UHGV virus genome: UHGV-0218015
Reading direction: 5' to 3' (one strand)
From: a virus
DNA: 64,000 nucleotides
Part shown: positions 7,847 through 63,550 of the stretch, in pieces
How positions within the stretch are numbered: the first letter of the stretch is position 1
Layout of the letters: every line of letters begins with the position of its first letter
Position numbers and translations under genes: made by a program
Notes under the pieces: model-generated
The model's input: only the letters and a program-made list of their open reading frames with translations
Told to the model about the DNA's origin: nothing
Database searches by the model: none

Positions 7847-7873
7847 AAAAATATCTTAGCTAGATATTATCTA
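7847..7873 (+). promoter_or_regulatory. promoter-like element, copy 1 of tandem duplicate
   Basis: 26-nt aaaatatcttagctagatattatcta, identical copy 79 bp downstream; contains TAGATATTATC. Confidence 0.5.
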
Positions 7874-7925
7874 TGTGATGGTTCGGTAGTTAATCATTTT
7901 AAGCTATGTGTGTTTTACGTGTATT

Positions 7926-7952
7926 CTAAAATATCTTAGCTAGATATTATCT
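7926..7952 (+). promoter_or_regulatory. promoter-like element, copy 2 of tandem duplicate
   Basis: identical 26-nt element about 50 nt upstream of ATG 8002. Confidence 0.5.
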
Positions 7953-8001
7953 ACGTGAACCAACACTACAATTGTATTAAACCTTATAAGGATTAAGTAA
8001 A

Positions 8002-9858
8002 ATGGCTAAAGAGTTTATTGACAATCAAAACGACGTTGTGACTGGTGCTGCTGGTGCTGCTGGTGCTGCTGCAGATCCAATTCCGTCTTTCGGTGGCGCG
8101 GGAGCTGCTACTGTGGATAATACCAATGCGGCCAACGCTTTTGGTGGGATGTCTAAAAACATCTCCACTTTCGATAAAGCTTTCGGATACATGTCCTTCG
8201 TGTCCACTGCTTCTCAGTTCACTAGCCTGATTGAGAAGATGGCGGAGAAGAACACATACCTGCGTAACTTCCGTTGGGGTGTCATTGACGGCATCAACTC
8301 TGAAATGGGTTCTGCTGCATACGTGGCTGGTCCGTCCGGCGATAACCATAACGAATGGCTCTACGGCATCCTGTTCTTTGAACATGGCCAGTCCATCCGT
8401 TTCTACGAAATCAACGGTAAAGAAAACTACTACACCCTGGCGCAGCTGTTCAGTCAAGAAGGTGTGATGAACAACATCACTAACCAGATTGCAACTCAAC
8501 ACAATCTGCCGAGCGTACAGTTCATGGTAATGAACTGCGTACCGGAACTGGGTAAAACCATGAACGAAGAATGGGCTAACCAGCTCATGGGCCAGATTGC
8601 ACTGGGTATCTTCGGTCGTCATTCTGGCTACCTGGGCTACCTGAAAATGACCCGTTCTGATCGCTTCACCGCGCAAGTTAGCGTAGTTGAAGAAGGTTCT
8701 GTAACTGACGTTAACGGTTCCGCACAGCGTGCTGACCTGATGGTTGTGGTTGACCATACTCGTACCGGCAACAACGATAATAACCCGACGCTGTTCTCTT
8801 CTGAACGCCTCCAGAATTATCCGAGCGTTGCAGGTGTTGGTTACATCAACCTCCGCCATAAAGGTAAACCTCAGACTCTGACTAACGGTACTCAGGACCT
8901 GCGTCAGCTGGAAGCCGAAGTGGTTGTTTCTCTGATGGATTCTCAATCCTCTGGGGCAATGGCACCTATCGAGCGTCAGCTGATTGAACTGGCCGCGTTC
9001 GCACAAATCGCCACTATCGGCGGCTGGCGTGAACGTTTCATGCAATCGCTGAACAAAACCGATCGTCGCTTCTCCCGCGTTCTGGAGTATGTAGAATGGG
9101 GCAGCGAAAAACCTGACCTGAGCAAAATCGACGGTAACCGTGAAGTTATCGAGAAATGCCTGGACACCTTCGCTAACCCGACTGCGGCTCTGGTGGTGAA
9201 CCATCGTGCAGGTAACGGTATCGGTGGTCTGTCTACTCTCCTGAGTGAAATCGGGATGGGTAACACCAACGCACTGTATACTCTGTTCAACATCCTGGAT
9301 AACATGGCCAGCAACGGCGCGACTAAGTTCAGCACTCGCTTCAAAGCGCTGCTGGGCAAGGACACCAACTTTGAGTGCAAACATGTTGTTATTGCCGGTT
9401 GCCCGACTATCTCTGGTCAGTATTTCAGCAACAGCCAGAAACGTAGCTTCCAGGATATGGACTTGGTTTCCGCTCTGACTAAAGTGGGCGACAACCAGCG
9501 TGATGCGATCGACTACATCAGTGCACAGTCCTACTCTCACCGCTACCTGAATGCGCGTGACCAGCGTCTGTACCTGCTGAAAATGGCTGCGTCCATGTTC
9601 GGTAGCAAACAGCCGCAGGTAACGGGTGAAGCGTCTGACCTGGCGATCAATCCGTTGTTTGGTAAGGCACTGGTGGAATACATCACCGAAAACTGCAACT
9701 TCCAGGTGAACGGTGTTACCGCAGCGAACAGCCTCACTCACTCTGTGTTTGTTAACACGGGTAATGAGAACTTCGCTCTGTCTGGTAGCGGTCCTAACGC
9801 ATTTGGTAGCGATTTCGGTATGTCCTTCGCTGCAACTGACTGGCGTCCGACTTTCTAA
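8002..9858 (+). CDS. abundant 618-aa protein; candidate phage-nucleus shell protein (chimallin-like) or major structural protein
   Basis: extreme codon bias (652-codon stop-free antisense shadow), tandem promoters, strong terminator; Gly/Ala/Phe-rich termini with SFGG/AFGG motifs; sits immediately upstream of the RNAP beta-prime gene; functional call is inference. Confidence 0.55.
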   Translation: MAKEFIDNQNDVVTGAAGAAGAAADPIPSFGGAGAATVDNTNAANAFGGMSKNISTFDKAFGYMSFVSTASQFTSLIEKMAEKNTYLRNFRWGVIDGINSEMGSAAYVAGPSGDNHNEWLYGILFFEHGQSIRFYEINGKENYYTLAQLFSQEGVMNNITNQIATQHNLPSVQFMVMNCVPELGKTMNEEWANQLMGQIALGIFGRHSGYLGYLKMTRSDRFTAQVSVVEEGSVTDVNGSAQRADLMVVVDHTRTGNNDNNPTLFSSERLQNYPSVAGVGYINLRHKGKPQTLTNGTQDLRQLEAEVVVSLMDSQSSGAMAPIERQLIELAAFAQIATIGGWRERFMQSLNKTDRRFSRVLEYVEWGSEKPDLSKIDGNREVIEKCLDTFANPTAALVVNHRAGNGIGGLSTLLSEIGMGNTNALYTLFNILDNMASNGATKFSTRFKALLGKDTNFECKHVVIAGCPTISGQYFSNSQKRSFQDMDLVSALTKVGDNQRDAIDYISAQSYSHRYLNARDQRLYLLKMAASMFGSKQPQVTGEASDLAINPLFGKALVEYITENCNFQVNGVTAANSLTHSVFVNTGNENFALSGSGPNAFGSDFGMSFAATDWRPTF

Positions 9859-9887
9859 TAAGTTGGTAAGTAGTAAGCAGTAGTTGA

Positions 9888-9929
9888 GGGACAGGGGAAA
9901 ACCCCCTGTCCCTTCCCTCTCTTTTTTTG
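9888..9929 (+). terminator. intrinsic terminator
   Basis: gggacagggg aaaa ccccctgtccc followed by T-run. Confidence 0.7.
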
Positions 9930-9942
9930 TTGAGGATTCGGC

Positions 9943-11310
9943 GTGGAACATAAACTAGAATATTACGGGATTTCAGGGCGACTAATTAGTCACGATAAAA
10001 TGCTACGTGACTGTATACAAGAAGCGGAGGAAAAAGGCTACAAACCCCCGATTATTATCAATGACGTTGCTGCAACGATGGATACCATCGAAGCGTCAGA
10101 GATGATTAACCAAATACTTCAAAACCGAATCGTTGATGAAACACTCAACTCGGCTCCTATTTGCAGTCTGACCTGCGAATCACCTATTACCCATCGTTAT
10201 AATCTTGGGTTACGTTGCCCACATTGTGGTCATGTTGTTTCTGAACATCGGATTACGTCCGAAGTTTGGCTACGTGCACCCGATGAGATAGGTAACTTTA
10301 TCAATCCACGTTTTTGGTCTCTCTTTAATGCTTTCTTTGGCTCTAAGCTGAAAAAATTTAATCGTAACAAAGTGACGGTAGAGCGTGGTTCTGATTTGCT
10401 GCTATGGCTAATCGATCCGTACTACCATCCAGAAAAGGACGAAGGAACACGTGCTCGTGTGGTGAAAAGAATACTTGGTGAATACAGGTTCGAACGGGGA
10501 ATTCGAAACTTTATCGACCACCATCGAACCGTCTTTAATATCCTTACGTCCCCAGAAGCCTGGAAGGAGATTTATCCACCGACGAAAAACAACCGTTATG
10601 AGAGTGAACGCGTACGCTTAGAATGGCGTGAGTTCTTTCAGGAACAATCGTTCTCATTCTTTCCAAGACACCTTCCGATTATTTCATCGAAACTGATCGT
10701 TACAGAGGAGCGCCGACAAGGTATCTTTATCGATCCCGTTTACACCAGTGCCATCGATGCAGTAAAAAATGTGGCGTTGTTGTACACGAATGCACGTCGT
10801 ATCGAACCACGATTTATTATTCGTCGTGCGATCAAAGCGAATCGACAACTTGCGTATTTCTATATTGACCATCGTCAGGAAGTGATGGAAGGTAAACCTG
10901 GGTTCTATCGGGCAAAACTCGGGTCAACGCACGTACCGTGGGGCGGACGTGTGACTATCTCTCCTATCTCTGAACCTCACGATGCGTTGAAAGTTATTGC
11001 GCCTTGGCGTTGGTTAGTTCCTTTGGCGAGTGTTCACATTGAGAACAAGTTAGGTCGACGTGACTACACACCTCGACAGTGTGAACGAATTATTGCATTC
11101 GCGGCAATGCAGTATGTACCGTTGGTGCATGAAATTATTAATGAGCTGATTAAAGAATCCCCCGGCGGATTCGGTTTAATGTTGGAAGTTCTACGTAACC
11201 CAACATTGGTTCAGCTTTCTATTCAGACGTTGTTTATCTCAGCGGTACTGACAGATGTAACACAATGTTCTCTGCGTATTTCTGATCGCGTCATCAAAGC
11301 ACCTAATGCT
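9943..11310 (+). CDS. RNA polymerase beta-prime-like subunit, N-terminal part, exon 1
   Basis: GTG start with RBS; Zn-ribbon C..C...CPHCGH; GKPGFYRAKLGSTHVPWGGRVTISP and RNPTLVQLSIQ resemble bacterial beta-prime [23 protein letters not shown] and RAPTLHRLGIQ (from memory); coding sense ends at ...VIKAPNA. Confidence 0.7.
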
Positions 11311-11660
11311 AAATACTGGCCCACTAGACGGGAAACCTCTAGTGCGTATCCCTCGAATTGCTGGGAACTCCTAAAGCTTACGATCCCGACAGGGTGGCGA
11401 AAGTCAGAAACAATTCGTAAGATAGCCTATGCTAACCAATAATGCTAAGGGTTGAGATAATGGATAACCAGCAGCGATGAAAATCGTTCAACGACTATCG
11501 AAAGGGTAAAACCGAGTAGAGTAGCTGCTTAGTTTAGCGGCGAAGTGAGGGAGACCTACGGGTAGCAATACCTACGGTTATGATATAGTCTGTGCCCATG
11601 TGAAAGCATGGGAGGGTGTCATTGCACACCTGCTCCAAAAGGAACGGAGTGGACAAACAG
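11311..11660 (+). ncRNA. group I self-splicing intron (ORF-less, T4 td-like IA2 type)
   Basis: 350 nt between NA and DFDGD codons; U at -1, G at last position; core-like elements AATTGCTGGGAAC (P), GTTCAACGACTAT (R, 11486-11498), GATATAGTC (S, 11582-11590) with GACTA/TAGTC P7 pairing; P9-like hairpin cccatg tgaaag catggg. Confidence 0.7.
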
Positions 11661-11900
11661 GATTTCGATGGCGATCAGTTACAATGCAGATTGGCAATCG
11701 ACCAGATTGAAATGGAACTGGGCATGGCTTATCGTCCAGACAACGGGTTTATGTCAAGCACGAATGTGGATGAGGTTTCGAGCTGCATGATTCTCCATAA
11801 CGAGAACATCAGCAACATAAACCGTTTCTTCCAGGATACTGAAGAGGACCTGGAGGCCGGTATCGCGCTTGACTCGGAAATATTAAAAATGGCGGGGTAA
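11661..11900 (+). CDS. RNA polymerase beta-prime-like subunit, N-terminal part, exon 2
   Basis: begins DFDGDQL...FMSSTN (cf. NADFDGDQM...MMSTNN); frame open to stop at 11900. Confidence 0.65.
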   Translation, partial: DFDGDQLQCRLAIDQIEMELGMAYRPDNGFMSSTNVDEVSSCMILHNENISNINRFFQDTEEDLEAGIALDSEILKMAG

Positions 11901-21596: not shown

Positions 21597-23834
21597 ATGA
21601 AAACGCCAGTAGAGCTAATGAGCAGTGTGGCTGACCGTGAGATTAATATCACCGAAGTATCAGGTGCAAGGGCATCGATGGTAGGCAACCATATGAAGTC
21701 CGCGGTCCCTATCGATAATCCTGAACCATCGCCACATTTCACAGGTGCAGATATAAACTACCACGATTTTCTGTTCAACGACGTTGTAGAAGATCCCGGT
21801 AGCATCTGCCACTATATGACCAAAGACGGTCGTCAGCGCCGTGCGACATTTACACGTTATGGTCGTCGTGGGGATTCTAAAGCGTTGGAACATGCTATCT
21901 TCTTCCGCCGTGCAGAAATGAAGGGCGGTAAAACCATGATAGATGTGCTGGAGATTAACTTCTATACTAACCACGACAACATCTTCTCATCTGAGAAGCG
22001 TGAGTCGATGAAACTGCGTAGTATTTTACGTGGTGAAACCGATCAGTTGGAAAAGGATGAAATTCTTACAACAATGTCGTGTATGGTGGAAGGTGAGTAC
22101 GCTGATAGCGTCGTGCTACCAACTGTTACGATTTCGCATCCTGATATTATCGAGGATTCTTACACCATCTCTGAGTACGCCGCCCAGAAGCTCCACGGTT
22201 ACGGTTTGAAAATCGTTGAAAAGACGCTACGCGAAGACGAGTTTTTACTGGATACTTACGGTTATATCGATCCGAATGGTAATCGTGTCCCACGCTATTT
22301 CCCGGATGTGGGGGAAGCTATTCGTGACGATGGGCTGGTCATTGCATCACGTCGTTTCGATGAGCTTTACGGTGCAATTGATGCGTCGCTTGGGGAAACC
22401 CAACACGTCTCCCCGTTCTTTGATAGTTGCGAATATGTGGATGCCGATCCCGTCCATTATAAAGCACGCCTTGCGGGCGACAAAGAACTGATGGAGAGTA
22501 GCGGTACACGCATCGTCGATATCCAGGTGTGGCGTGATGAAACGTCTTGCGCGAATGGCACCAACAATATTTCTTGTACCGAAGAGAACAAACGAGAACT
22601 GGATAAATACGCATTAGCATTGAAAGACTATTACAATGCCATTGTACGTTTCTATTTCTCGATGTCTCGTGACAAAAATATTATTTGGTCGCCGAAGGCG
22701 TGTGTGCTGTTGGAAAAAGCCTTCGCTTCCGAAACGTACGAAGTCTATCACGAGTTTCGTGAAGAGATTCGCGTGGTGATTGATGAAGCGATTCGTCGTG
22801 GTGAATATGGTAAAGAAAATGTCAGTCAGCAAATTCTTTCTAAGTTGACCGCACCAGTACAGCGTGGACTCAGCGATCCCATCAACACGTATACCATTCG
22901 TATTGCTGTTCGTTATCCGATCCCGGTAACGGTGTCGTCTAAGATTACTGACCGTTCGGGTACGAAAGGGATTGTTGGACGCGTGTTACCCGTTGAACAG
23001 ATGCCGATTAACGAATTCGGTGAACGTGTTCACGTTTTACGTTCGATGAACGCTGTAATTCGTCGCTCGACTTATGCAGCACTATTCCACATGTATTGGT
23101 CAGCTGCGTCTGAGCAGTTGAAGATGCGTCTTAAACCAATGCTGGACGAAGGCCGTATCAGTGAATGTTGGGAAATCCTGATGGATTATCTGTCACGTTA
23201 TAATCCTGAATGGGCCAACACACTACAGGTAACACATCCTACGGAGGATTTACAACGCGAACTCTTTAAAGAGATTTACGATTTTACAATACGTATTTAC
23301 TTGCCACATGAACTTGACGACACGCCAGTCGATATCAGTGAACGGTTGGGTGAATTTAAACCACGTAAATCAAAACTTCTACTTACTAACTTCGACGGTA
23401 AGCAGGAATGGACAAAAGATGAATTTTACGTAGGTGGTGTGGAAACATTACGTCTGGATAAAACAGGTCGTGAGTTTTCCAGTATCTCGTCAATGTATCT
23501 GAATTATCTGGGTACGATAGACGCGTCTAACCAAGGTCGTGGCTCGTATCCGATAAACTATAAAACGCTAAAATGGGCTGGTCCTTCGGAAGAACGACTG
23601 TTAGCGGGTTATGGTCCAGGTAACTACGAAGAAGTTCACGATAGGGCAAATAACCCTGCGGTACATCGTGAGATTTTAGTAGGGCTTTATCGATCTCAAA
23701 CCCCATCTAATCCGGGTCCATTAGTAGACCGGAATAAATTCCCGTTAGGGGATTCGCAGATTGACAGGATGATGAAAAACATCCACAACTGTGAAGGGTT
23801 TGAATTGGTGAAAATGAAAAGGGGCGATGAATAA
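21597..23834 (+). CDS. RNA polymerase beta-like subunit, C-terminal part
   Basis: 745 aa; DRSGTKGIVGRVLPVEQMPINEFGERVHVLRSMNAV resembles bacterial beta GRHGNKGVISKI..PIEDMPY..PSRMN region; AGPSEERLLAGYG resembles GGQRFGEMEVWALEAYG (from memory). Confidence 0.7.
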   Translation: MKTPVELMSSVADREINITEVSGARASMVGNHMKSAVPIDNPEPSPHFTGADINYHDFLFNDVVEDPGSICHYMTKDGRQRRATFTRYGRRGDSKALEHAIFFRRAEMKGGKTMIDVLEINFYTNHDNIFSSEKRESMKLRSILRGETDQLEKDEILTTMSCMVEGEYADSVVLPTVTISHPDIIEDSYTISEYAAQKLHGYGLKIVEKTLREDEFLLDTYGYIDPNGNRVPRYFPDVGEAIRDDGLVIASRRFDELYGAIDASLGETQHVSPFFDSCEYVDADPVHYKARLAGDKELMESSGTRIVDIQVWRDETSCANGTNNISCTEENKRELDKYALALKDYYNAIVRFYFSMSRDKNIIWSPKACVLLEKAFASETYEVYHEFREEIRVVIDEAIRRGEYGKENVSQQILSKLTAPVQRGLSDPINTYTIRIAVRYPIPVTVSSKITDRSGTKGIVGRVLPVEQMPINEFGERVHVLRSMNAVIRRSTYAALFHMYWSAASEQLKMRLKPMLDEGRISECWEILMDYLSRYNPEWANTLQVTHPTEDLQRELFKEIYDFTIRIYLPHELDDTPVDISERLGEFKPRKSKLLLTNFDGKQEWTKDEFYVGGVETLRLDKTGREFSSISSMYLNYLGTIDASNQGRGSYPINYKTLKWAGPSEERLLAGYGPGNYEEVHDRANNPAVHREILVGLYRSQTPSNPGPLVDRNKFPLGDSQIDRMMKNIHNCEGFELVKMKRGDE

Positions 23835-46099: not shown

Positions 46100-47371
46100 A
46101 TGGCAAATTTCGCAAAAACTCGCGCCGCTCGTGAATCGATGGAAGCGGCCGATGAAGTAATCGACGGTATCAGCAACGTTGAACCGGCAGAAGAGAACCT
46201 GGACGTCCAACTTGCGGACGTTGCATCTATCGACGGTCAGCTCGATCAGCTGGAAACCGACGGTGAAACCCTGGCTGCCGATACCGAGCGTACTGAAGAC
46301 GCTATCGAACAGGCGGAAGAAGCCGTTGCTAACGGTGAAGAAATGCCGGAAGAAGCGGTTGCCCTGCACGAAGTGGCACAGGAATCCATCGCACGTCGTT
46401 GGTGCCTGGAACGTACTAAACTGGCTCGCGAATCCTATCGCCGTGGTCGTGGTATGACTGCTGCTGCCCAGGAAGGTTGGAAAGAAACCCTGAAAGATCT
46501 TTACGATCGTTTCATTCAGTTCTGTAAAGAAGTGATTGCGAAGATCAAAGACCTGAAACTGAAATATTTCAACGTCGGTAAGACTGCACAGAAACGTGCG
46601 AAGAAATATCAGGAAATGCTGCGTAAGCTGGGCAAACAGAAGAAAGATGAGATCTCTGGTGGGTTTATCACCAAGCTGTCTATCGAAGGTAAATTCGATG
46701 CTGCTGGCTCTATCGCTATTGCGAAAGAAGTTACCGCTGGTAAAGCTAAAGGTTCCATCAGTGCTCTGGAAAAACAGGCCGGTGAAGCTGTAACTGCTGT
46801 GAGCAAGGGTGACGACGATTCCTTCAAAGCAATGCGCGGCGATCAGCCTGTAGACCTGTTCGGTAAAGCAGCGTCTAAACTGCATTCTCTGCCGAATTTT
46901 GAAAAAGGCGATGCGTCTAAATTGCTGGCACTGCCAGGCAACGCGTACATTCAGGCTGGTACTAAAGAACTGGCTGGCGGCCACAAGTTCACCGCAATTG
47001 CTTTCATGAGCACCGGTGACGCTTCTGACGATAAAGACGTGAAAACTCCGTCTGTTTCTGAAATGGCTGGTGCTGCTTCTGCTCTGGAAGCAATCGGTAA
47101 AGGCTTCGAAGCCGTACTGAAAGATTTCCGTGCTTACGATTCTGAAATCGTGAAACTGCAACAGGCTGCTGAAAAAGCAACCAAAGAGCTGAATAACGAG
47201 AAAGACGAAAGCAAATGGGATGGCCTGCGTAACGCACGTCAAGCTGCTGATTGGTCTGTTAAGAACTACCAGACCCTGAACCGCGCCGTTAGCTATGTTG
47301 CTAACACCGTTATTAGCGGTCTGAATGGTTACCTGGGTGCTGGTATCGGTGCTTACGAAAAATCTAAATAA
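46100..47371 (+). CDS. abundant paralog A (423 aa); putative processed virion-internal protein
   Basis: extreme codon bias (395-codon antisense shadow); acidic N-terminal region with ARES, AQES motifs; shares RKLGKQKKDEISGGFI and C-terminal GYLGAGIGAYEKSK with downstream paralog. Confidence 0.6.
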   Translation: MANFAKTRAARESMEAADEVIDGISNVEPAEENLDVQLADVASIDGQLDQLETDGETLAADTERTEDAIEQAEEAVANGEEMPEEAVALHEVAQESIARRWCLERTKLARESYRRGRGMTAAAQEGWKETLKDLYDRFIQFCKEVIAKIKDLKLKYFNVGKTAQKRAKKYQEMLRKLGKQKKDEISGGFITKLSIEGKFDAAGSIAIAKEVTAGKAKGSISALEKQAGEAVTAVSKGDDDSFKAMRGDQPVDLFGKAASKLHSLPNFEKGDASKLLALPGNAYIQAGTKELAGGHKFTAIAFMSTGDASDDKDVKTPSVSEMAGAASALEAIGKGFEAVLKDFRAYDSEIVKLQQAAEKATKELNNEKDESKWDGLRNARQAADWSVKNYQTLNRAVSYVANTVISGLNGYLGAGIGAYEKSK

Positions 47372-47453
47372 TAATTTAGATTCGTAGTTCCGTACAGTTC
47401 TTGAAATAAATCATCAGGGGAACAACGCGTTCCCCTTAGAGGAAAAGCTTAAA

Positions 47454-48719
47454 ATGGCGAATTTCTACAAAAACAAAATTGCTCGTGAGTCTATGGAGTC
47501 TACCGCTACTGTAGTTCCAGACGGCATCGAACTGCCAGCAGAATCCGTAGAAGGCACTCTGGCCGATATCGAGCATGACACCAAACCGATCGAAGCCCTG
47601 GACGCTGACGCTGAACTGCTGGCAGAAGACGGCGACGAAACTGACGCACAGCTGGATGTTCTGGATGAAGCTCAGGCCGCTGCTGACGGTGAAGGTGCTG
47701 GCGAAGACGGCGAAGACCCGATGGACGCCGAAGAAGATATGCCGGACGACGCTGCGACCGCGCTGGACGTTGCTCAGGAATCTATCCGTTCTCGTTGGAA
47801 CTTCGATCACCGTTCTTCCGTTGCACACGAATCCTACGGTTCTCGTAACCGTCGCCAGGTGGCTCGTGAATCCCTGTGGGAAGACATTAAAGCCTTCCTG
47901 GGTCGTATCTGGGAATGGCTGAAAGAACAAGGCCGTAAGATCAAAGATCGTTGGCTGAAATTCTCCAACCAGGGTAAATCTATCCAGGCGCGTGCTAAGA
48001 AATACGATGAAGTTATTCGTAAGCTGGGCAAACAGAAGAAAGATGAGATCTCTGGTGGGTTTATCAAGTCTCTGTCTATCGATGGCAAGTTCGTCGGCGA
48101 TAATATTCCGAAACTGAAAGGTATCCTTAGCCAGGTTTCCACATTCTATAGCACTAAGATGCCTTCCATGGCCGCTAAAGCTGCTGAAATGGTTTCCGAT
48201 GTTACCAAAGGTAATGGTGCTAAAGTTGAAAAACTGAAAGCCGACTTTACCGAACTGGCCGAAAAAGACAGTCAACAAAACTTCAAACTCGGTAACATGG
48301 CGTTGAAAACCGAGTATGACAACGAAGGCGGTTTCAGCTCCACCTTTGTTGCAGCAGAAAATAGCGTTGAAACTAGTGTGAAAACTCCGTCTGCTGGCGA
48401 ATTGGCTAAAATCAACGCCTTCTTCAATGAAGTGGGCAAACAGATTGAGAAGAACGTTCAGGATTATCGTAAAGTCGAAAGCGCGCGGAAAACTTTTGAA
48501 GATAATATCGATAAGCTCCTGAAAGAAGTCGATAAAGTTAAGATCGACGAAAAACCGGAACTGACCGAAGCTGTACGTGCTGCCCGTCGTTACATCACCA
48601 GCATTAACCAGGCCCTGTCTCTGGGTGAGAAAGTTATTGCTTCTACTCAGAAACATCTGGCTGGCGGTCTGAACGGCTATATCTCCGCAGGTATCGCTGC
48701 TTACGAAAAATCTAAATAA
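47454..48719 (+). CDS. abundant paralog B (421 aa); putative processed virion-internal protein
   Basis: paralog of 46100..47371 (MANF.K...ARESMES, AQESIRSRW, RKLGKQKKDEISGGFI, AGIAAYEKSK); 436-codon antisense shadow; strong terminator. Confidence 0.6.
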   Translation: MANFYKNKIARESMESTATVVPDGIELPAESVEGTLADIEHDTKPIEALDADAELLAEDGDETDAQLDVLDEAQAAADGEGAGEDGEDPMDAEEDMPDDAATALDVAQESIRSRWNFDHRSSVAHESYGSRNRRQVARESLWEDIKAFLGRIWEWLKEQGRKIKDRWLKFSNQGKSIQARAKKYDEVIRKLGKQKKDEISGGFIKSLSIDGKFVGDNIPKLKGILSQVSTFYSTKMPSMAAKAAEMVSDVTKGNGAKVEKLKADFTELAEKDSQQNFKLGNMALKTEYDNEGGFSSTFVAAENSVETSVKTPSAGELAKINAFFNEVGKQIEKNVQDYRKVESARKTFEDNIDKLLKEVDKVKIDEKPELTEAVRAARRYITSINQALSLGEKVIASTQKHLAGGLNGYISAGIAAYEKSK

Positions 48720-48737
48720 TCTCTGATTGTTTAGTAA

Positions 48738-48785
48738 GAGAACCACCCTATTACAGGGTGGTTCTCTCTTTTCTTTTTTTTTTTC
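48738..48785 (+). terminator. intrinsic terminator (strong)
   Basis: gagaaccaccct attac agggtggttctc followed by about 19-nt T-run. Confidence 0.75.
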
Positions 48786-61255: not shown

Positions 61256-63550
61256 ATGAAAGATACCCGAATCTCTAATCTGGAGAAACTCGTACAAGCT
61301 GGTAACTCGCTGGTACAAAGCGTCATTAGTAACAACACTGCTGGCGAAATGTGGAACACCATCGTTGCTGGTGAATCTGTACGTAGCAACACTAAAGTTT
61401 TTGGTACCCTGCGTGACGACGCTGCACAGCACTACGCAAACGCGTTTGCTGGCGGTAAGAAAATGTCCCACGCTGCGGAAGTTGCTTCTGCAATGATTCT
61501 GGGTGCTGCTGGTCACGGTATGGACTTGCAAGAAAAAGTAGCTCAAGAATACGCTAAACCGGAATTCCATAGCCGTTTTAACCTGGACGTTGCGATTCCT
61601 GGCTCCCAAGCTGGTAACGGCGACTGGGGCAAAGAGCGTATGGTTGTCGCTCAGGAATACTACACCAACAAAGACTACGACAAAAACCTGGGTCTGACCT
61701 GGACGCTGAACGTACGTGCTCTGGAAACCCAGTCTCGTTTTGCTGAGACTCTGTTCCCGACCATCACTGTTGACACTAACGATGTTGGTATTACCGTACG
61801 TACCAAAGTGACCACCGTTTCTCGCGGTGTAATGAACGCACTGCTGAGCAAAGACGTTGTTGAAGATCATCGTCGTAACTTACATGAAGCGCTGACTGAC
61901 CACACTGTTCTCCAGGACGAAGCGATCAACATCGTTCCTTACGTAATGGAAACCGGTGAAAACGCTGAATACTTCGTAAGCGAAGATCTGGTACCGAACG
62001 AATCTGTTCGTCTGGGTCGTGTACCTCCGTACCCGACTAACTACCTGAGCTTTGCTAAAGACACTCTGAACCTGTTCCAGCTGTCCGCGCATCCGGGTAT
62101 CGTAATCGAAGGTTACGACGAAACTGATGAAATCGCGCCGGGCTGTGCTCTGGGCAGCCTGCTGATTTCCGTACGTAAAGCGGCTGAAGATGCAAAAGCA
62201 GGTAAATTCATTAAACTGCACGTTCGCGACATGCAGTTCGCAACCTTCCAGCGCCCTGCTGAAGGTGATGGCCGTGAGCTGGTACTGCAATTCCGTCGTA
62301 CTGCGTTCTCTCTGAACGCGAAAACTACCGACTGGAAAGGCGAAGCTATTCCGGCTCTGAAAACACTGGAACAGAACTCCTACACCCTGCGTTATGTGAT
62401 CACCATCAACATGTCTCTGTTCACTACCGGTCAGTTCGGTGGTAAAGTTGACATCGCTGGTCACAAACTGGAAATCGAAGGTCTGTACGACGCTACCGGT
62501 AACAAAGTTGATATTAAGACTGGTACCGGCAAAGCTGTCCTGGAAAATCTGAAACTTGAACTGATCGGCTGGCGTTTCGATGGTACTCGTACCAACGAAA
62601 ACCGTCGTACCCAGGGTCTGCTGCTCGACCCAATCTGGGAACAAGAAAACTACAAGCTGCAATACGGTTCTCCGATTCTGACCAAGTCTCCGGTTGGCGT
62701 TGAATACGACGATACCGAGCGTCTGGACGACCTGATTTCCGCAGTTAACATCCGTAACGAACAGTTGGCTATCACTCAGACACTGTCTTACACCGAAGCG
62801 GTACGTAACGCTGCTGCAAGCATGATCACTCCGTGGGACAAACCGGCCATTCGTGGTCTGGGCCGTCACTGGGTTGCTCCGTGGTTCAAAGAGTCTGACT
62901 ACAACGTTGATAAAGTTGTACAGTCCCTGGATACCAAAGAAGCACTGATCAACGCTCGTCAGGGTCTGGTACAGCGTATCGGTAATCAGGTAACTCAGGC
63001 TATCCAGGAATCTCGCTTCATTCCTGCGCTGCGTCTGTACACTGCTGATCCGGACATTCTGCCGAAGGTTGTTATTGCAACCGACGAACCGACTGCATCC
63101 ATGCTGCTGCTGGTACAGGGCGACCAACGTCTGCTGGGCGATCGCTACGAATACGAAGTGATCACCACCAACGATGACCGCTGGCGTATCTACAACGCAG
63201 CTGACGGTTCCTGGACTCGTCGTCTGCAATGGTTCCTGAAAGTTCCGACTGCGGACGATGGTTCCTACAACGTGCTGAACTGGGGTAACCACTTCTGGTC
63301 TCCGATCATGGTTACTAACATCAACATTCAGCGTAACGGCTCTACCTCTAAAGAGCTGGCCGTACAGCCGCGTAACGCGCACATCTGCCACTGCCCGATC
63401 ACTGGTCTGATCTGGGTTAAAGGCATCACCAAACTGGTTGAAGAAAAACTGGCTTACAATGTTTCTGTTGAACAGAACGGTCAGAAACAAACCGAAGGTG
63501 GTGTAGCAGGTAACGTTGCTGGCGAAGGCAAAGCTGCTGCCGGTAAGTAA
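61256..63550 (+). CDS. abundant 764-aa protein; putative major capsid protein
   Basis: extreme codon bias (536-codon antisense shadow), strong terminator; size fits phiKZ-type major capsid proteins; N-terminal AGE/GES motifs; assignment by size and expression only. Confidence 0.5.
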   Translation: MKDTRISNLEKLVQAGNSLVQSVISNNTAGEMWNTIVAGESVRSNTKVFGTLRDDAAQHYANAFAGGKKMSHAAEVASAMILGAAGHGMDLQEKVAQEYAKPEFHSRFNLDVAIPGSQAGNGDWGKERMVVAQEYYTNKDYDKNLGLTWTLNVRALETQSRFAETLFPTITVDTNDVGITVRTKVTTVSRGVMNALLSKDVVEDHRRNLHEALTDHTVLQDEAINIVPYVMETGENAEYFVSEDLVPNESVRLGRVPPYPTNYLSFAKDTLNLFQLSAHPGIVIEGYDETDEIAPGCALGSLLISVRKAAEDAKAGKFIKLHVRDMQFATFQRPAEGDGRELVLQFRRTAFSLNAKTTDWKGEAIPALKTLEQNSYTLRYVITINMSLFTTGQFGGKVDIAGHKLEIEGLYDATGNKVDIKTGTGKAVLENLKLELIGWRFDGTRTNENRRTQGLLLDPIWEQENYKLQYGSPILTKSPVGVEYDDTERLDDLISAVNIRNEQLAITQTLSYTEAVRNAAASMITPWDKPAIRGLGRHWVAPWFKESDYNVDKVVQSLDTKEALINARQGLVQRIGNQVTQAIQESRFIPALRLYTADPDILPKVVIATDEPTASMLLLVQGDQRLLGDRYEYEVITTNDDRWRIYNAADGSWTRRLQWFLKVPTADDGSYNVLNWGNHFWSPIMVTNINIQRNGSTSKELAVQPRNAHICHCPITGLIWVKGITKLVEEKLAYNVSVEQNGQKQTEGGVAGNVAGEGKAAAGK

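What the first reader, a model, noticed from the sequence alone, without database searches (positions are those of the whole stretch)
7847..9858. Extremely codon-biased 618-aa gene behind a tandem-duplicated promoter: candidate phage-nucleus shell protein
The gene has one of the strongest codon-bias signatures in the window (its antisense strand is stop-free over 652 codons). It is preceded by two identical 26-nt promoter-like elements 79 bp apart and followed by a strong terminator, and it sits directly upstream of the beta-prime N gene. The protein has flexible Gly/Ala-rich N- and C-terminal extensions around a large core, as expected for a lattice-forming shell protein whose termini bind neighbouring protomers. 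It could equally be a major virion protein such as the tail sheath.
Basis: inference. Interest (0 to 1): 0.6.

Follow-up and report, generated by a model that had tools for sequence, protein, structure and literature searches.

The report
Phage-nucleus shell protein gene (chimallin)
This gene encodes chimallin, the protein that nucleus-forming jumbo phages use to build a shell around their DNA; it is a new, divergent copy of a protein already identified in close relatives, so it is a correct call but an ordinary one.

Summary
A 618-aa gene (8002-9858, +) has very strong host-type codon bias. Two identical 26-nt elements precede it and a strong hairpin terminator follows it. The next gene downstream is the non-virion RNA polymerase beta-prime N-terminal gene.

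The shell-protein reading is supported. The protein is 52% identical, full length and syntenic, to Erwinia phage Asesino gp39. That protein has been shown by GFP fusion to form the ring of the phage nucleus. An AlphaFold model (pTM 0.77) matches only solved chimallins in the PDB: nine chains, E 1e-17 to 1e-21, with the next hit at E 0.14. No sheath or capsid protein matches.

The disordered tails carry three conserved short segments where chimallin has its lattice-docking segments NTS, CTS1 and CTS2.

The two upstream elements are not a recent duplication. Both are conserved at fixed distances from the ATG in seven phages of at least five lineages. Their core, GATATTATC, recurs at orthologous sites in SPN3US, including in front of a non-virion polymerase gene. 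It is most likely the early (virion-polymerase) promoter motif.

Verdict: a new member of a known kind, of low to moderate interest.

Seen in passing: a 350-nt ORF-less group I intron splits the NADFDGD motif of the downstream polymerase gene. A 99%-identical relative lacks it.

The parts
7848..7873 (+). Distal promoter-like element P1 (core GATATTATC at 7863-7871, 139 nt before the ATG)
   Evidence: This is one of two exact 26-nt copies, with 0 expected by chance. It is conserved at 138-151 nt from the ATG in 7 phages. The core motif is enriched in the window, with 8 matches against 0.56 expected.
7928..7953 (+). Proximal promoter-like element P2 (core GATATTATC at 7943-7951, 59 nt before the ATG)
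   Evidence: The element is conserved at 56-60 nt from the ATG in all 7 phages compared.
7988..7992 (+). Shine-Dalgarno AAGGA, 9 nt before the start codon
   Evidence: The sequence is read directly. These columns are invariant in the 7-phage alignment.
8002..9858 (+). chmA: chimallin (phage-nucleus shell protein), 618 aa
   Evidence: The match to phrog_8316 has E 1e-232. The protein is 52% identical to Asesino gp39. Foldseek gives E about 1e-21 to the solved Goslar, 201phi2-1 and phiPA3 chimallins.
8042..8071 (+). 9-nt tandem repeat CTGGTGCTG (x3) encoding the (GAA)n stretch in the variable N-terminal tail
   Evidence: One unit is missing from the 99%-identical relative L007/P0001.
8164..8199 (+). 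NTS-like conserved segment (aa 55-66, FDKAFGY...), immediately before the folded core
   Evidence: This is a conservation island after a hypervariable stretch at aa 10-52. It sits in the same place as the 201phi2-1 NTS at residues 48-61 (PMC9365700).
8200..9726 (+). Folded two-domain core (aa 67-575)
   Evidence: The AF2 model has pLDDT mostly 80-93 here and pTM 0.77. The core aligns over 535-591 columns to chimallin chains, with TM 0.57-0.71.
9742..9792 (+). CTS1-like conserved segment (aa 581-597, SVFVNTGNENFALSGSG)
   Evidence: The residues are nearly invariant (F583, N585, L593, G595, G597) although the tail is predicted to be disordered.
9808..9855 (+). CTS2-like conserved C-terminal segment (aa 603-618, SDFGMSF...PTF)
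   Evidence: The SDFGLG motif is conserved after a variable linker.
9886..9929 (+). Intrinsic terminator: 12-bp G+C-rich hairpin (9886-9914) followed by CTCTTTTTTTG
   Evidence: The hairpin is conserved in 7 phages, and 6 of the 12 hairpin pairs are kept through changes on both sides.
7993..9951 (-). 652-aa antisense ORF: a by-product of codon bias, not a gene
   Evidence: The ORF is codon-aligned with chmA and is open only because TTA, CTA and TCA are absent. It is broken by 2-6 stops in 5 of the 7 relatives checked and intact only in L007 and SPN3US.

Best explanation
The gene encodes ChmA (chimallin), the major shell protein of the phage nucleus, in a chimallivirus related to the Asesino / SPN3US group.

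**How the protein most likely works.** This is inferred from the solved chimallins. The two-domain core spans aa 67-575. It forms tetramers that tile into a square lattice around the replicating phage DNA. Three short conserved segments on flexible tails dock onto neighbouring protomers. The NTS-like segment (aa 55-66) would act within a tetramer. The CTS1-like (aa 581-597) and CTS2-like (aa 603-618) segments would act between tetramers. The shell separates phage DNA, replication and transcription from the cytoplasm and from host nucleases.

**How the gene is built for very high, early output.**
- Two tandem promoters, P1 and P2, share the core GATATTATC. This core is most likely the early promoter motif read by the injected virion RNA polymerase.
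- The Shine-Dalgarno sequence AAGGA is conserved.
- The codons are almost entirely host-optimal.
- A strong intrinsic terminator ends the transcript.

The nvRNAP beta-prime N-terminal gene starts 29 nt after the hairpin and has no promoter motif of its own. It is probably expressed at a lower level, by read-through.

**Shown here:** homology, fold, synteny, motif enrichment and conservation, and terminator covariation.

**Inferred:** lattice assembly through the tails, the promoter class and start sites, and read-through.
For: **Identity of the protein**
- It is 52% identical over 589 aa to Asesino gp39 (618 aa). The neighbours are the same: a gp38-like gene on the minus strand upstream and the nvRNAP beta-prime N gene downstream.
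- Asesino gp039 is the GFP-tagged ChmA that rings the phage DNA, and gp040 is nvRNAP beta-prime 1 (PMC11724907).
- It is 51% identical to SPN3US ACQ60_gp244. Laughlin et al. named that protein a diverged chimallin homologue (PMC9365700).
- The AF2 model has pTM 0.77. All nine PDB matches with E <= 0.001 are chimallins, and the tenth hit has E 0.14.
- In BFVD, 17 of the 19 matches with E <= 0.001 are near-full-length alignments to proteins of about 590-690 aa. Those named are from jumbo phages (RP12, Noxifer, Eowyn, pTD1, D3).
- The chmA - PHIKZ055-homologue order matches phiKZ gp54-gp55.

**Tails**
- Residues 1-66 and 576-618 are predicted to be disordered.
- They hold conserved islands at the positions of NTS, CTS1 and CTS2 (boundaries).

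**Promoters**
- The two 26-nt copies are exact, with 0 expected by chance.
- Both are conserved in 7 phages at fixed distances from the ATG.
- The core is enriched in the window, 8 against 0.56 expected, and in SPN3US 1-50 kb, 6 against 0.26 expected, all on the coding strand.
- Sites are orthologous between the two genomes. One lies about 40 nt upstream of the PHIKZ071-type nvRNAP beta gene.
- RNAP-encoding jumbo phages carry a roughly 10-nt AT-rich early motif near -10 (PMC7598289).
- phiKZ gp54 itself has two transcription start sites (PMC8244752).

**Expression signals**
- Fop is 0.81 and ENC 35.4. Orthologues have Fop 0.81-0.85.
- The terminator is supported.
Against: - Sequence searches do not link the protein to solved chimallins. 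Neither phmmer nor a 30-sequence profile found any PDB chain, and no Pfam family matched. The link to the canonical chimallins therefore rests on a predicted structure with TM 0.57-0.71 and rmsd 5.5-7.8 A.
- Localisation, lattice formation and tail docking were not tested for this protein.
- The promoter class is inferred from motif distribution only. No start site or timing data exist for this clade.
- Upstream of the shared core, the two chmA elements differ from the other sites in the window.
- Read-through of the terminator is conjecture.
Confidence: 0.9

Rival explanations
1. The protein is a major virion component such as the tail sheath.
For: The codon bias is as strong as that of the head proteins in the window. 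The size, about 600 aa, is compatible with jumbo-phage sheath proteins (own knowledge).
Against: No sheath, tube or capsid structure is among the significant PDB or BFVD matches, and all nine significant PDB hits are chimallins. The orthologue in Asesino localises as a nuclear ring. The major head and internal head proteins are other genes in the window.
Confidence: 0.01
2. The two 26-nt elements are not virion-polymerase promoters. They could instead be operator sites for a dimeric regulator, because each copy holds the dyad ATATCT-N5-AGATAT, or they could be host sigma-70 promoters.
For: The dyad is perfect (6 of 6) in both window copies, in L003 P1 and in ChrisDB P2. TATTAT resembles a -10 hexamer, and TTGAAA lies 15 nt upstream of it in P1. 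The chmA elements share an upstream half, A-run plus TCTYAG, that the other core sites lack.
Against: The dyad is weak (3-5 of 6) in 10 of the 14 elements compared, so it is not the conserved feature; the core GATATTATC is. The sigma-70 scan found no plus-strand promoter here, and the TTGAAA is absent from P2. The same core sits upstream of other genes at orthologous positions in two genomes. phiKZ-type phages transcribe independently of host RNA polymerase (PMC7598289). A regulator site overlapping a promoter is not excluded.
Confidence: 0.1
3. The promoter pair is a recent tandem duplication specific to this phage, as the finding's title implies.
For: The two copies are identical over 26 nt and 92% identical over 36 nt. 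That is more alike than the pairs in relatives.
Against: Both elements occupy the same positions in Seoulvirus, Erskinevirus, Wellingtonvirus, Machinavirus and the window's own lineage. The pair therefore predates these lineages. The extra similarity here is better explained by homogenisation (gene conversion) or by selection. The 54 nt between the copies is not duplicated.
Confidence: 0.03

Closest known systems
Erwinia phage Asesino gp039 (ChmA), Erskinevirus
   Same: Both proteins are 618 aa, and they are 52% identical over 589 aa. The gene order is the same: gp38-like (-), chmA, nvRNAP beta-prime 1. Both have tandem GATATTATC elements and a terminator. The Asesino protein is experimentally localised to the nuclear shell.
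   Different: The N-terminal tail (aa 1-50) is unrelated in sequence; here it is Gly/Ala-rich with a 9-nt repeat. Asesino has a 12-aa insertion near aa 435. The downstream polymerase gene has no intron in Asesino.
Salmonella phage SPN3US ACQ60_gp244 (YP_009153316.1), Seoulvirus
   Same: It is 51% identical over 91% of the query and has the same synteny. Laughlin et al. 2022 called it a diverged chimallin homologue and linked it to a 13.5-nm square lattice seen in infected-cell lysates. The promoter core sites are orthologous.
   Different: The name 'gp244' is ambiguous. In the Thomas-lab numbering, gp244 is a small virion RNA polymerase fragment. Here the RefSeq locus tag is meant.
Solved chimallins: 201phi2-1 gp105 (7SQQ/7SQR/7SQS, 8IGG), Goslar (7SQT/7SQU/7SQV), phiPA3 gp53/PhuN (8FNE); phiKZ gp54
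   Same: The whole-protein fold is the same (Foldseek E 1e-17 to 1e-21, TM 0.57-0.71, 535-591 aligned columns). The layout is also the same: variable N-tail, short conserved segment, two-domain core, then two conserved C-terminal segments separated by linkers. The gene sits next to the nvRNAP beta-prime N gene, as phiKZ gp54 does with gp55.
   Different: Identity is only 14-16%, and HMMER detects no similarity even with a profile. Whether the tail segments dock in the same grooves is unknown.
[quoted passage not shown]
   Same: phiKZ chmA also has two transcription start sites. Early promoters of these phages are AT-rich motifs of about 10 nt near -10, with a T- or A-rich tract upstream. That matches (A/T)-run ... 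ATAGATATTATC here.
   Different: In phiKZ the two start sites use different motif classes, early and middle. Here both elements carry the same core. The motif sequence itself is clade-specific. No start-site data exist for this clade.

Membership tests
Chimallin (ChmA), phage-nucleus shell protein | Two-domain chimallin core fold: a unique alpha/beta N-domain plus an acetyltransferase-like C-domain | tested here: met
   The AF2 model (pTM 0.77) matches all solved chimallins over nearly their full length, with E 1e-17 to 1e-21 and TM 0.57-0.71. Nothing else matches below E 0.1. This rests on a predicted structure, not an experimental one.
Chimallin (ChmA), phage-nucleus shell protein | Orthology to a protein shown experimentally to form the shell | tested here: met
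   The protein is 52% identical to Asesino gp39, with the same length and neighbours. The GFP-gp039 ring is shown in PMC11724907.
Chimallin (ChmA), phage-nucleus shell protein | [quoted passage not shown] | tested here: inconclusive
   The tails are disordered and carry three conserved islands at the expected positions (boundaries). Docking itself could not be modelled, because no multimer prediction is available.
Chimallin (ChmA), phage-nucleus shell protein | Encoded in a chimallivirus genome with two multisubunit RNA polymerases, next to the nvRNAP beta-prime N gene | tested here: met
   The downstream gene matches PHIKZ055 (7ogp_A, E 1e-30). A PHIKZ071-type nvRNAP beta gene lies at 21597-23834. 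There is a further RNAP beta-type gene, a phiKZ-type major head protein and a DNA polymerase. Virion RNA polymerase genes were not specifically identified in this 64-kb window.
Chimallin (ChmA), phage-nucleus shell protein | Sequence-profile membership in a curated chimallin family | tested here: inconclusive
   The match to phrog_8316 is strong (E 1e-232), but that family has no functional label. No Pfam-A family reached threshold. Several homologues carry a precomputed PF25677 hit, whose name I could not check. There is no HMMER link to PDB chimallins.
Chimallin (ChmA), phage-nucleus shell protein | Self-assembly into a square lattice enclosing phage DNA in infected cells | not testable with these tools
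   This needs microscopy, cryo-ET or in vitro assembly.
[quoted passage not shown] | A conserved AT-rich motif of about 10 nt, recurring upstream of early genes on the coding strand | tested here: met
   GATATTATC occurs 8 times against 0.56 expected in the window. It occurs 6 times against 0.26 expected in SPN3US 1-50 kb, all on the + strand. Sites are orthologous and include the upstream regions of chmA and of an nvRNAP beta gene.
[quoted passage not shown] | Transcription starts about 10 nt downstream of the motif, early in infection and independent of host RNA polymerase | not testable with these tools
   No transcriptome for this clade was found in the literature searched.
Intrinsic (factor-independent) terminator | A G+C-rich hairpin followed by a U-run, conserved as a structure | tested here: met
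   The stem has 12 bp with 8 G-C pairs and is followed by a T-run. The intergenic RNA folds with z = -2.5. Of the 12 hairpin pairs, 6 are kept through changes on both sides across 7 phages, and the T-run is invariant.

The most novel reading that the evidence does not exclude
The conserved pair of same-class promoters in front of chmA may be a dedicated dosage and timing device rather than simple redundancy. The pair is fixed at about 140 and about 58 nt from the ATG in every lineage compared. Its upstream half (A-run, TCTYAG, sometimes a perfect ATATCT-N5-AGATAT dyad) differs from the phage's other early promoters. One possibility is that one promoter fires from the injected genome in the early vesicle while the other is kept on, or is shut off by a phage factor, once the shell is built. 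In that case the terminator would set the ChmA : nvRNAP ratio by partial read-through.
Probability: 0.15. Interest if true: 0.45.

Novelty: new member of a known kind. Interest (0 to 1): 0.22.

Why it matters
The finding gives a firm functional label to a gene that all 62 matching phage records in the collection searched, and PHROGs, still leave without a functional name. The listed records call it 'hypothetical protein', or 'DUF2019' in one case. The label marks the source as a nucleus-forming jumbo phage of an enterobacterial-type host.

This chimallin lineage is only 14-16% identical to the solved chimallins. It diverges much faster than the capsid protein: 53% identity to Asesino against 80% for the major head protein. 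It is therefore useful for asking which tail and core contacts are truly required for lattice assembly.

The conserved promoter core and the double-promoter-plus-terminator layout give a testable early-promoter definition for the SPN3US / Asesino group. I found no transcription map for that group.

None of this overturns current knowledge.

Tried and rejected
- **Sequence link to solved structures.** phmmer with the protein and hmmsearch with a 30-sequence family profile both found nothing in the PDB, even at E <= 10. Only fold comparison made the link.
- **Pfam.** No family matched the protein or four homologues. The precomputed PF25677 tag on some homologues could not be resolved to a name.
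- **Near-identical DNA.** Megablast of the locus against phage records matched only the upstream gp38-like gene, at 74-75%. No close sequenced relative exists in that collection.
- **Sigma-70 promoters.** The scan found none on the + strand upstream of chmA.
- **Operator idea.** The dyad ATATCT-N5-AGATAT is perfect in the window but weak in most relatives. I rejected it as the conserved feature.
- **Late promoter idea.** The phiKZ late TATG motif is present in P1 (TATCTATGTGA). It is not conserved in P2 or in Asesino, so I rejected it.
- **Antisense ORF as a real gene.** I rejected this. The ORF is codon-aligned and is explained by the absence of three rare codons. It is broken in five of the seven relatives checked.
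- **Transcript data.** Literature searches for start-site data in SPN3US-like phages, or for chimallin promoters, found nothing usable beyond phiKZ.
Full report
**1. Observation**

The ORF list shows a 618-aa ATG-initiated ORF at 8002..9858 (+). It also shows a 652-aa ORF on the opposite strand at 7993..9951. The antisense ORF is in register with the sense codons. It is open only because the gene contains no TTA, CTA or TCA codon. In 26 other genes of the window these three codons make up 4.0% of 12,632 codons, so zero in 618 has a probability of about 1e-11.

Codon use is strongly skewed to the enterobacterial optimal set: CTG 38 of 46 Leu, CGT/CGC for all 26 Arg, AAC 42 of 51 Asn, TTC 28 of 35 Phe. 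The fraction of optimal codons (Fop) is 0.81 and the effective number of codons (ENC) is 35.4. Most window genes have Fop 0.42-0.63 and ENC 46-61. Only the major head protein and an internal head protein are comparable.

Upstream, the 26-mer AAAATATCTTAGCTAGATATTATCTA occurs exactly twice, at 7848-7873 and 7928-7953, with none expected. The repeat extends to 36 nt at 92% identity, with a start-to-start spacing of 80 nt. Downstream, a 12-bp hairpin with 8 G-C pairs at 9886-9914 is followed by a T-run.

**2. What the protein is**

Pfam gave nothing. PHROGs gave a very strong match to phrog_8316, E 1e-232, a family with no functional label.

tblastn against phage genomes found 62 records, all of them Erwinia, Salmonella, Escherichia, Cronobacter, Proteus or 'Enterobacteria' jumbo phages, at 45-53% identity. 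All of the records listed are annotated 'hypothetical protein', apart from one 'DUF2019'.

The best hit is Asesino gp39. It is also 618 aa and is 52% identical over 589 aa. The gene order is identical: a gp38-like gene on the minus strand, the query gene, then the 'RNA polymerase beta subunit' gp40. The downstream window gene is 70% identical to gp40.

Prichard et al. tagged Asesino gp039 with GFP as its ChmA homologue. They saw a ring enclosing the DAPI-bright phage DNA. They also showed that gp040 (nvRNAP beta-prime 1) is nuclear (PMC11724907).

The SPN3US orthologue is RefSeq ACQ60_gp244, 51% identical. Laughlin et al. called this protein a diverged chimallin homologue, about 10% identical to 201phi2-1 chimallin. 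They tied it to a 13.5-nm square lattice in SPN3US-infected cell lysates (PMC9365700). In the Thomas-lab numbering 'gp244' means a small virion RNA polymerase fragment, so the RefSeq tag must be the one meant.

**3. Independent test by structure**

Neither the sequence nor a 30-member family profile (alignment A1) detects any PDB chain.

An AlphaFold2 model built on A1 has pTM 0.77. The core at residues 67-575 is confident, and pLDDT is below 50 for residues 1-66 and 576-618.

Foldseek against the PDB returns exactly nine matches with E <= 0.001. All are chimallins:
- Goslar: 7SQT, 7SQU, 7SQV.
- 201phi2-1: 7SQS, 7SQQ, 7SQR, and 8IGG chains A and B.
- phiPA3 PhuN: 8FNE.

These have E 1e-17 to 1e-21, TM 0.57-0.71, 535-591 aligned columns and 14-16% identity. 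The tenth hit has E 0.14.

Against BFVD, 17 of the 19 matches with E <= 0.001 are near-full-length alignments to proteins of about 590-690 aa. Those named are from jumbo phages (Ralstonia RP12 and RSF1, Pseudomonas Noxifer, Klebsiella Eowyn, Aeromonas D3, Vibrio pTD1). The other two are weak, partial matches.

**3a. The tails**

In 201phi2-1 chimallin the layout is as follows:
- NTS: residues 48-61.
- Core: residues 62-581.
- CTS1: residues 590-611.
- CTS2: residues 622-631.
- Unresolved linkers lie between these parts, and deleting the segments abolishes assembly in vitro.

In the family alignment, residues 10-52 of the window protein are hypervariable and of low complexity. Three conserved islands then appear:
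- FDKAFGY (57-63; family consensus FDRAFGW), just before the core.
- SVFVNTGNENFALSGSG (581-597; F583, N585, L593, G595 and G597 are nearly invariant), after the core.
- SDFGMSF...PTF (603-618), after a variable linker.

These are supported. Three conserved short segments sit in otherwise disordered tails, at the places where chimallin has its docking segments. This fits the tail-swap lattice mechanism, but docking itself was not tested.

**4. The upstream elements**

I aligned the chmA upstream regions of seven sequences:
- the window;
- an uncultured relative with 71%-identical ChmA (L003);
- Asesino (Erskinevirus);
- SPN3US and pEa_SNUABM_29 (Seoulvirus);
- Wellington (Wellingtonvirus);
- ChrisDB (Machinavirus).

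Both elements are present in all seven. The cores lie 138-151 nt (P1) and 56-60 nt (P2) from the ATG. The pair is therefore ancestral. The unusual 26-nt identity in the window lineage is also present, base for base, in the 99% relative L007. It is best read as homogenisation, not a new duplication.

The invariant part is (G/T)ATATTATC followed by N3-GTGA. The core GATATTATC occurs 8 times in the window against 0.56 expected. TAGATATTATC with up to one mismatch occurs 11 times against 0.89 expected.

The sites that have an A/T-rich tract upstream are all on the + strand and upstream of genes:
- 59
- 7863 and 7943 (the chmA pair)
- 16283 (variant GATATTATT)
- 17794
- 21559
- 63624 (variant GATATTATT)

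In the first 50 kb of SPN3US the core occurs 6 times against 0.26 expected, all on the + strand. Several of these positions are orthologous to window sites. They include the chmA pair and a site about 40 nt upstream of an RNA polymerase beta gene. In the window that gene is a homologue of the phiKZ nvRNAP subunit PHIKZ071.

Two findings from the literature bear on this:
- RNAP-encoding jumbo phages have a clade-specific AT-rich motif of about 10 nt near -10 of early genes, read by the virion RNA polymerase. The nvRNAP is synthesised during the infection (PMC7598289).
- In phiKZ, gp54 (ChmA) has two start sites, one with the early motif and one with the middle motif (PMC8244752).

I therefore read P1 and P2 as tandem early-class promoters. 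This is inference, because no start-site data exist for this clade.

I considered and rejected three alternatives:
- **Sigma-70 promoters.** The scan found none on the + strand.
- **A dyad-symmetric operator.** The dyad is perfect in the window but weak in most relatives.
- **The phiKZ late TATG motif.** It is not conserved.

**5. The 3' end**

The hairpin and T-run are conserved in all seven phages. Of the 12 hairpin pairs, 6 are kept through changes on both sides. The sequence CTCTTTTTTTG-TTGAGG is nearly invariant, and its GAGG serves as the ribosome-binding site of the next gene.

The polymerase gene starts 29 nt after the stem with no promoter core in between. It is probably expressed by partial read-through, which would give much ChmA and little polymerase. 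This is inference.

**6. Comparison and novelty**

By fold, orthology and context the gene is a chimallin. Its clade has already been recognised as encoding chimallin (SPN3US, Asesino). The window's copy is a divergent new member:
- 53% identical to the nearest deposited phage;
- 71% and 99% identical to two metagenomic contigs.

The major head protein is 80% identical to Asesino's, so ChmA evolves markedly faster. As far as my literature searches reached, the conserved double promoter and the clade's early-promoter core have not been described. They parallel phiKZ. Overall this is a new member of a known kind, of low to moderate interest.

**7. Seen in passing**

The downstream nvRNAP beta-prime N-terminal gene is split.
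- Similarity to Asesino gp40 stops at residue 458 and resumes in another frame at '..DFDGDQ..'.
- Rfam finds a complete group I intron (RF00028, 60.5 bits against a gathering score of 50, E 7e-13) at 11301-11612.
- Alignment with the intron-less 99% relative L007 fixes the insertion at 11311-11660, which is 350 nt with no ORF of 60 aa or more on the intron strand.
- The insertion follows a T and ends in G. Removing it restores K-A-P-N-A-D-F-D-G-D, the catalytic NADFDGD motif.
- L003 has the same split ORF layout.
- The PDB entry for the phiKZ homologue is named 'PHIKZ055 ... PHIKZ056.1'. This suggests a split gene there too.

The N-tail (GAA)n repeat differs by one 9-nt unit between the window and L007.

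Noticed in passing
window 11311-11660 (+), inside the nvRNAP beta-prime N-terminal gene (9943..11310 + 11661..11900): A 350-nt ORF-less group I intron (Rfam RF00028, 60.5 bits, E 7e-13) splits the catalytic NADFDGD motif between A and D. The 499-aa ORF 9943..11442 is therefore exon 1 plus read-in to the intron. The intron is absent from a relative with 100% identical flanks (L007) and from Asesino and SPN3US. It is probably present in L003. This points to a mobile, polymorphic intron.
   Followed up: yes
window 59, 16283, 17794, 21559, 63624 (+), besides 7863 and 7943: These are further copies of the promoter core (ATA)GATATTAT(C/T), each with an A/T-rich tract upstream, all on the + strand. 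The sites are orthologous to SPN3US 7395, 23815, 25231 and 28974. One lies 38 nt before the PHIKZ071-type nvRNAP beta gene. Together they form a candidate early-promoter set for this clade.
   Followed up: partly
window 8042-8071: The tandem 9-nt repeat CTGGTGCTG encodes the (GAA)n stretch in the ChmA N-tail. The 99%-identical relative P0001/L007 has one unit fewer. This is repeat-number polymorphism in the dispensable part of the tail.
   Followed up: yes
window 47436-48746 (-) versus 47454-48719 (+): This is a second long 'shadow' ORF (436 aa, minus strand) opposite a 421-aa plus-strand ORF. It lies next to the internal head protein gene at 46100-47371. It is probably another codon-bias artefact over a highly expressed head gene. 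The plus-strand protein was not identified.
   Followed up: partly
L002 4770-4790, L001 5785-5800 and the same columns of alignment A2; window 7874-7927: Between P1 and P2, five of the seven phages share a small hairpin-like sequence, TAAGC-GACG-GCTTA. In the window and in L003 this stretch is replaced by unrelated sequence. Its function is unknown.
   Followed up: no
window 61256-63550 versus 8002-9858: The major head protein is about 80% identical to Asesino's and matches 225 phage records, including Pseudomonas phiKZ-like phages. ChmA is only 53% identical and matches 62 records. The shell protein therefore evolves much faster than the capsid protein.
   Followed up: partly
SPN3US NC_027402.1 15768-17621 (L001 5881-7734): There is a naming trap. 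'SPN3US gp244' means the chimallin homologue in Laughlin et al. 2022, which uses the RefSeq tag ACQ60_gp244. In the Thomas-lab numbering it means a small virion RNA polymerase beta-prime fragment.
   Followed up: yes
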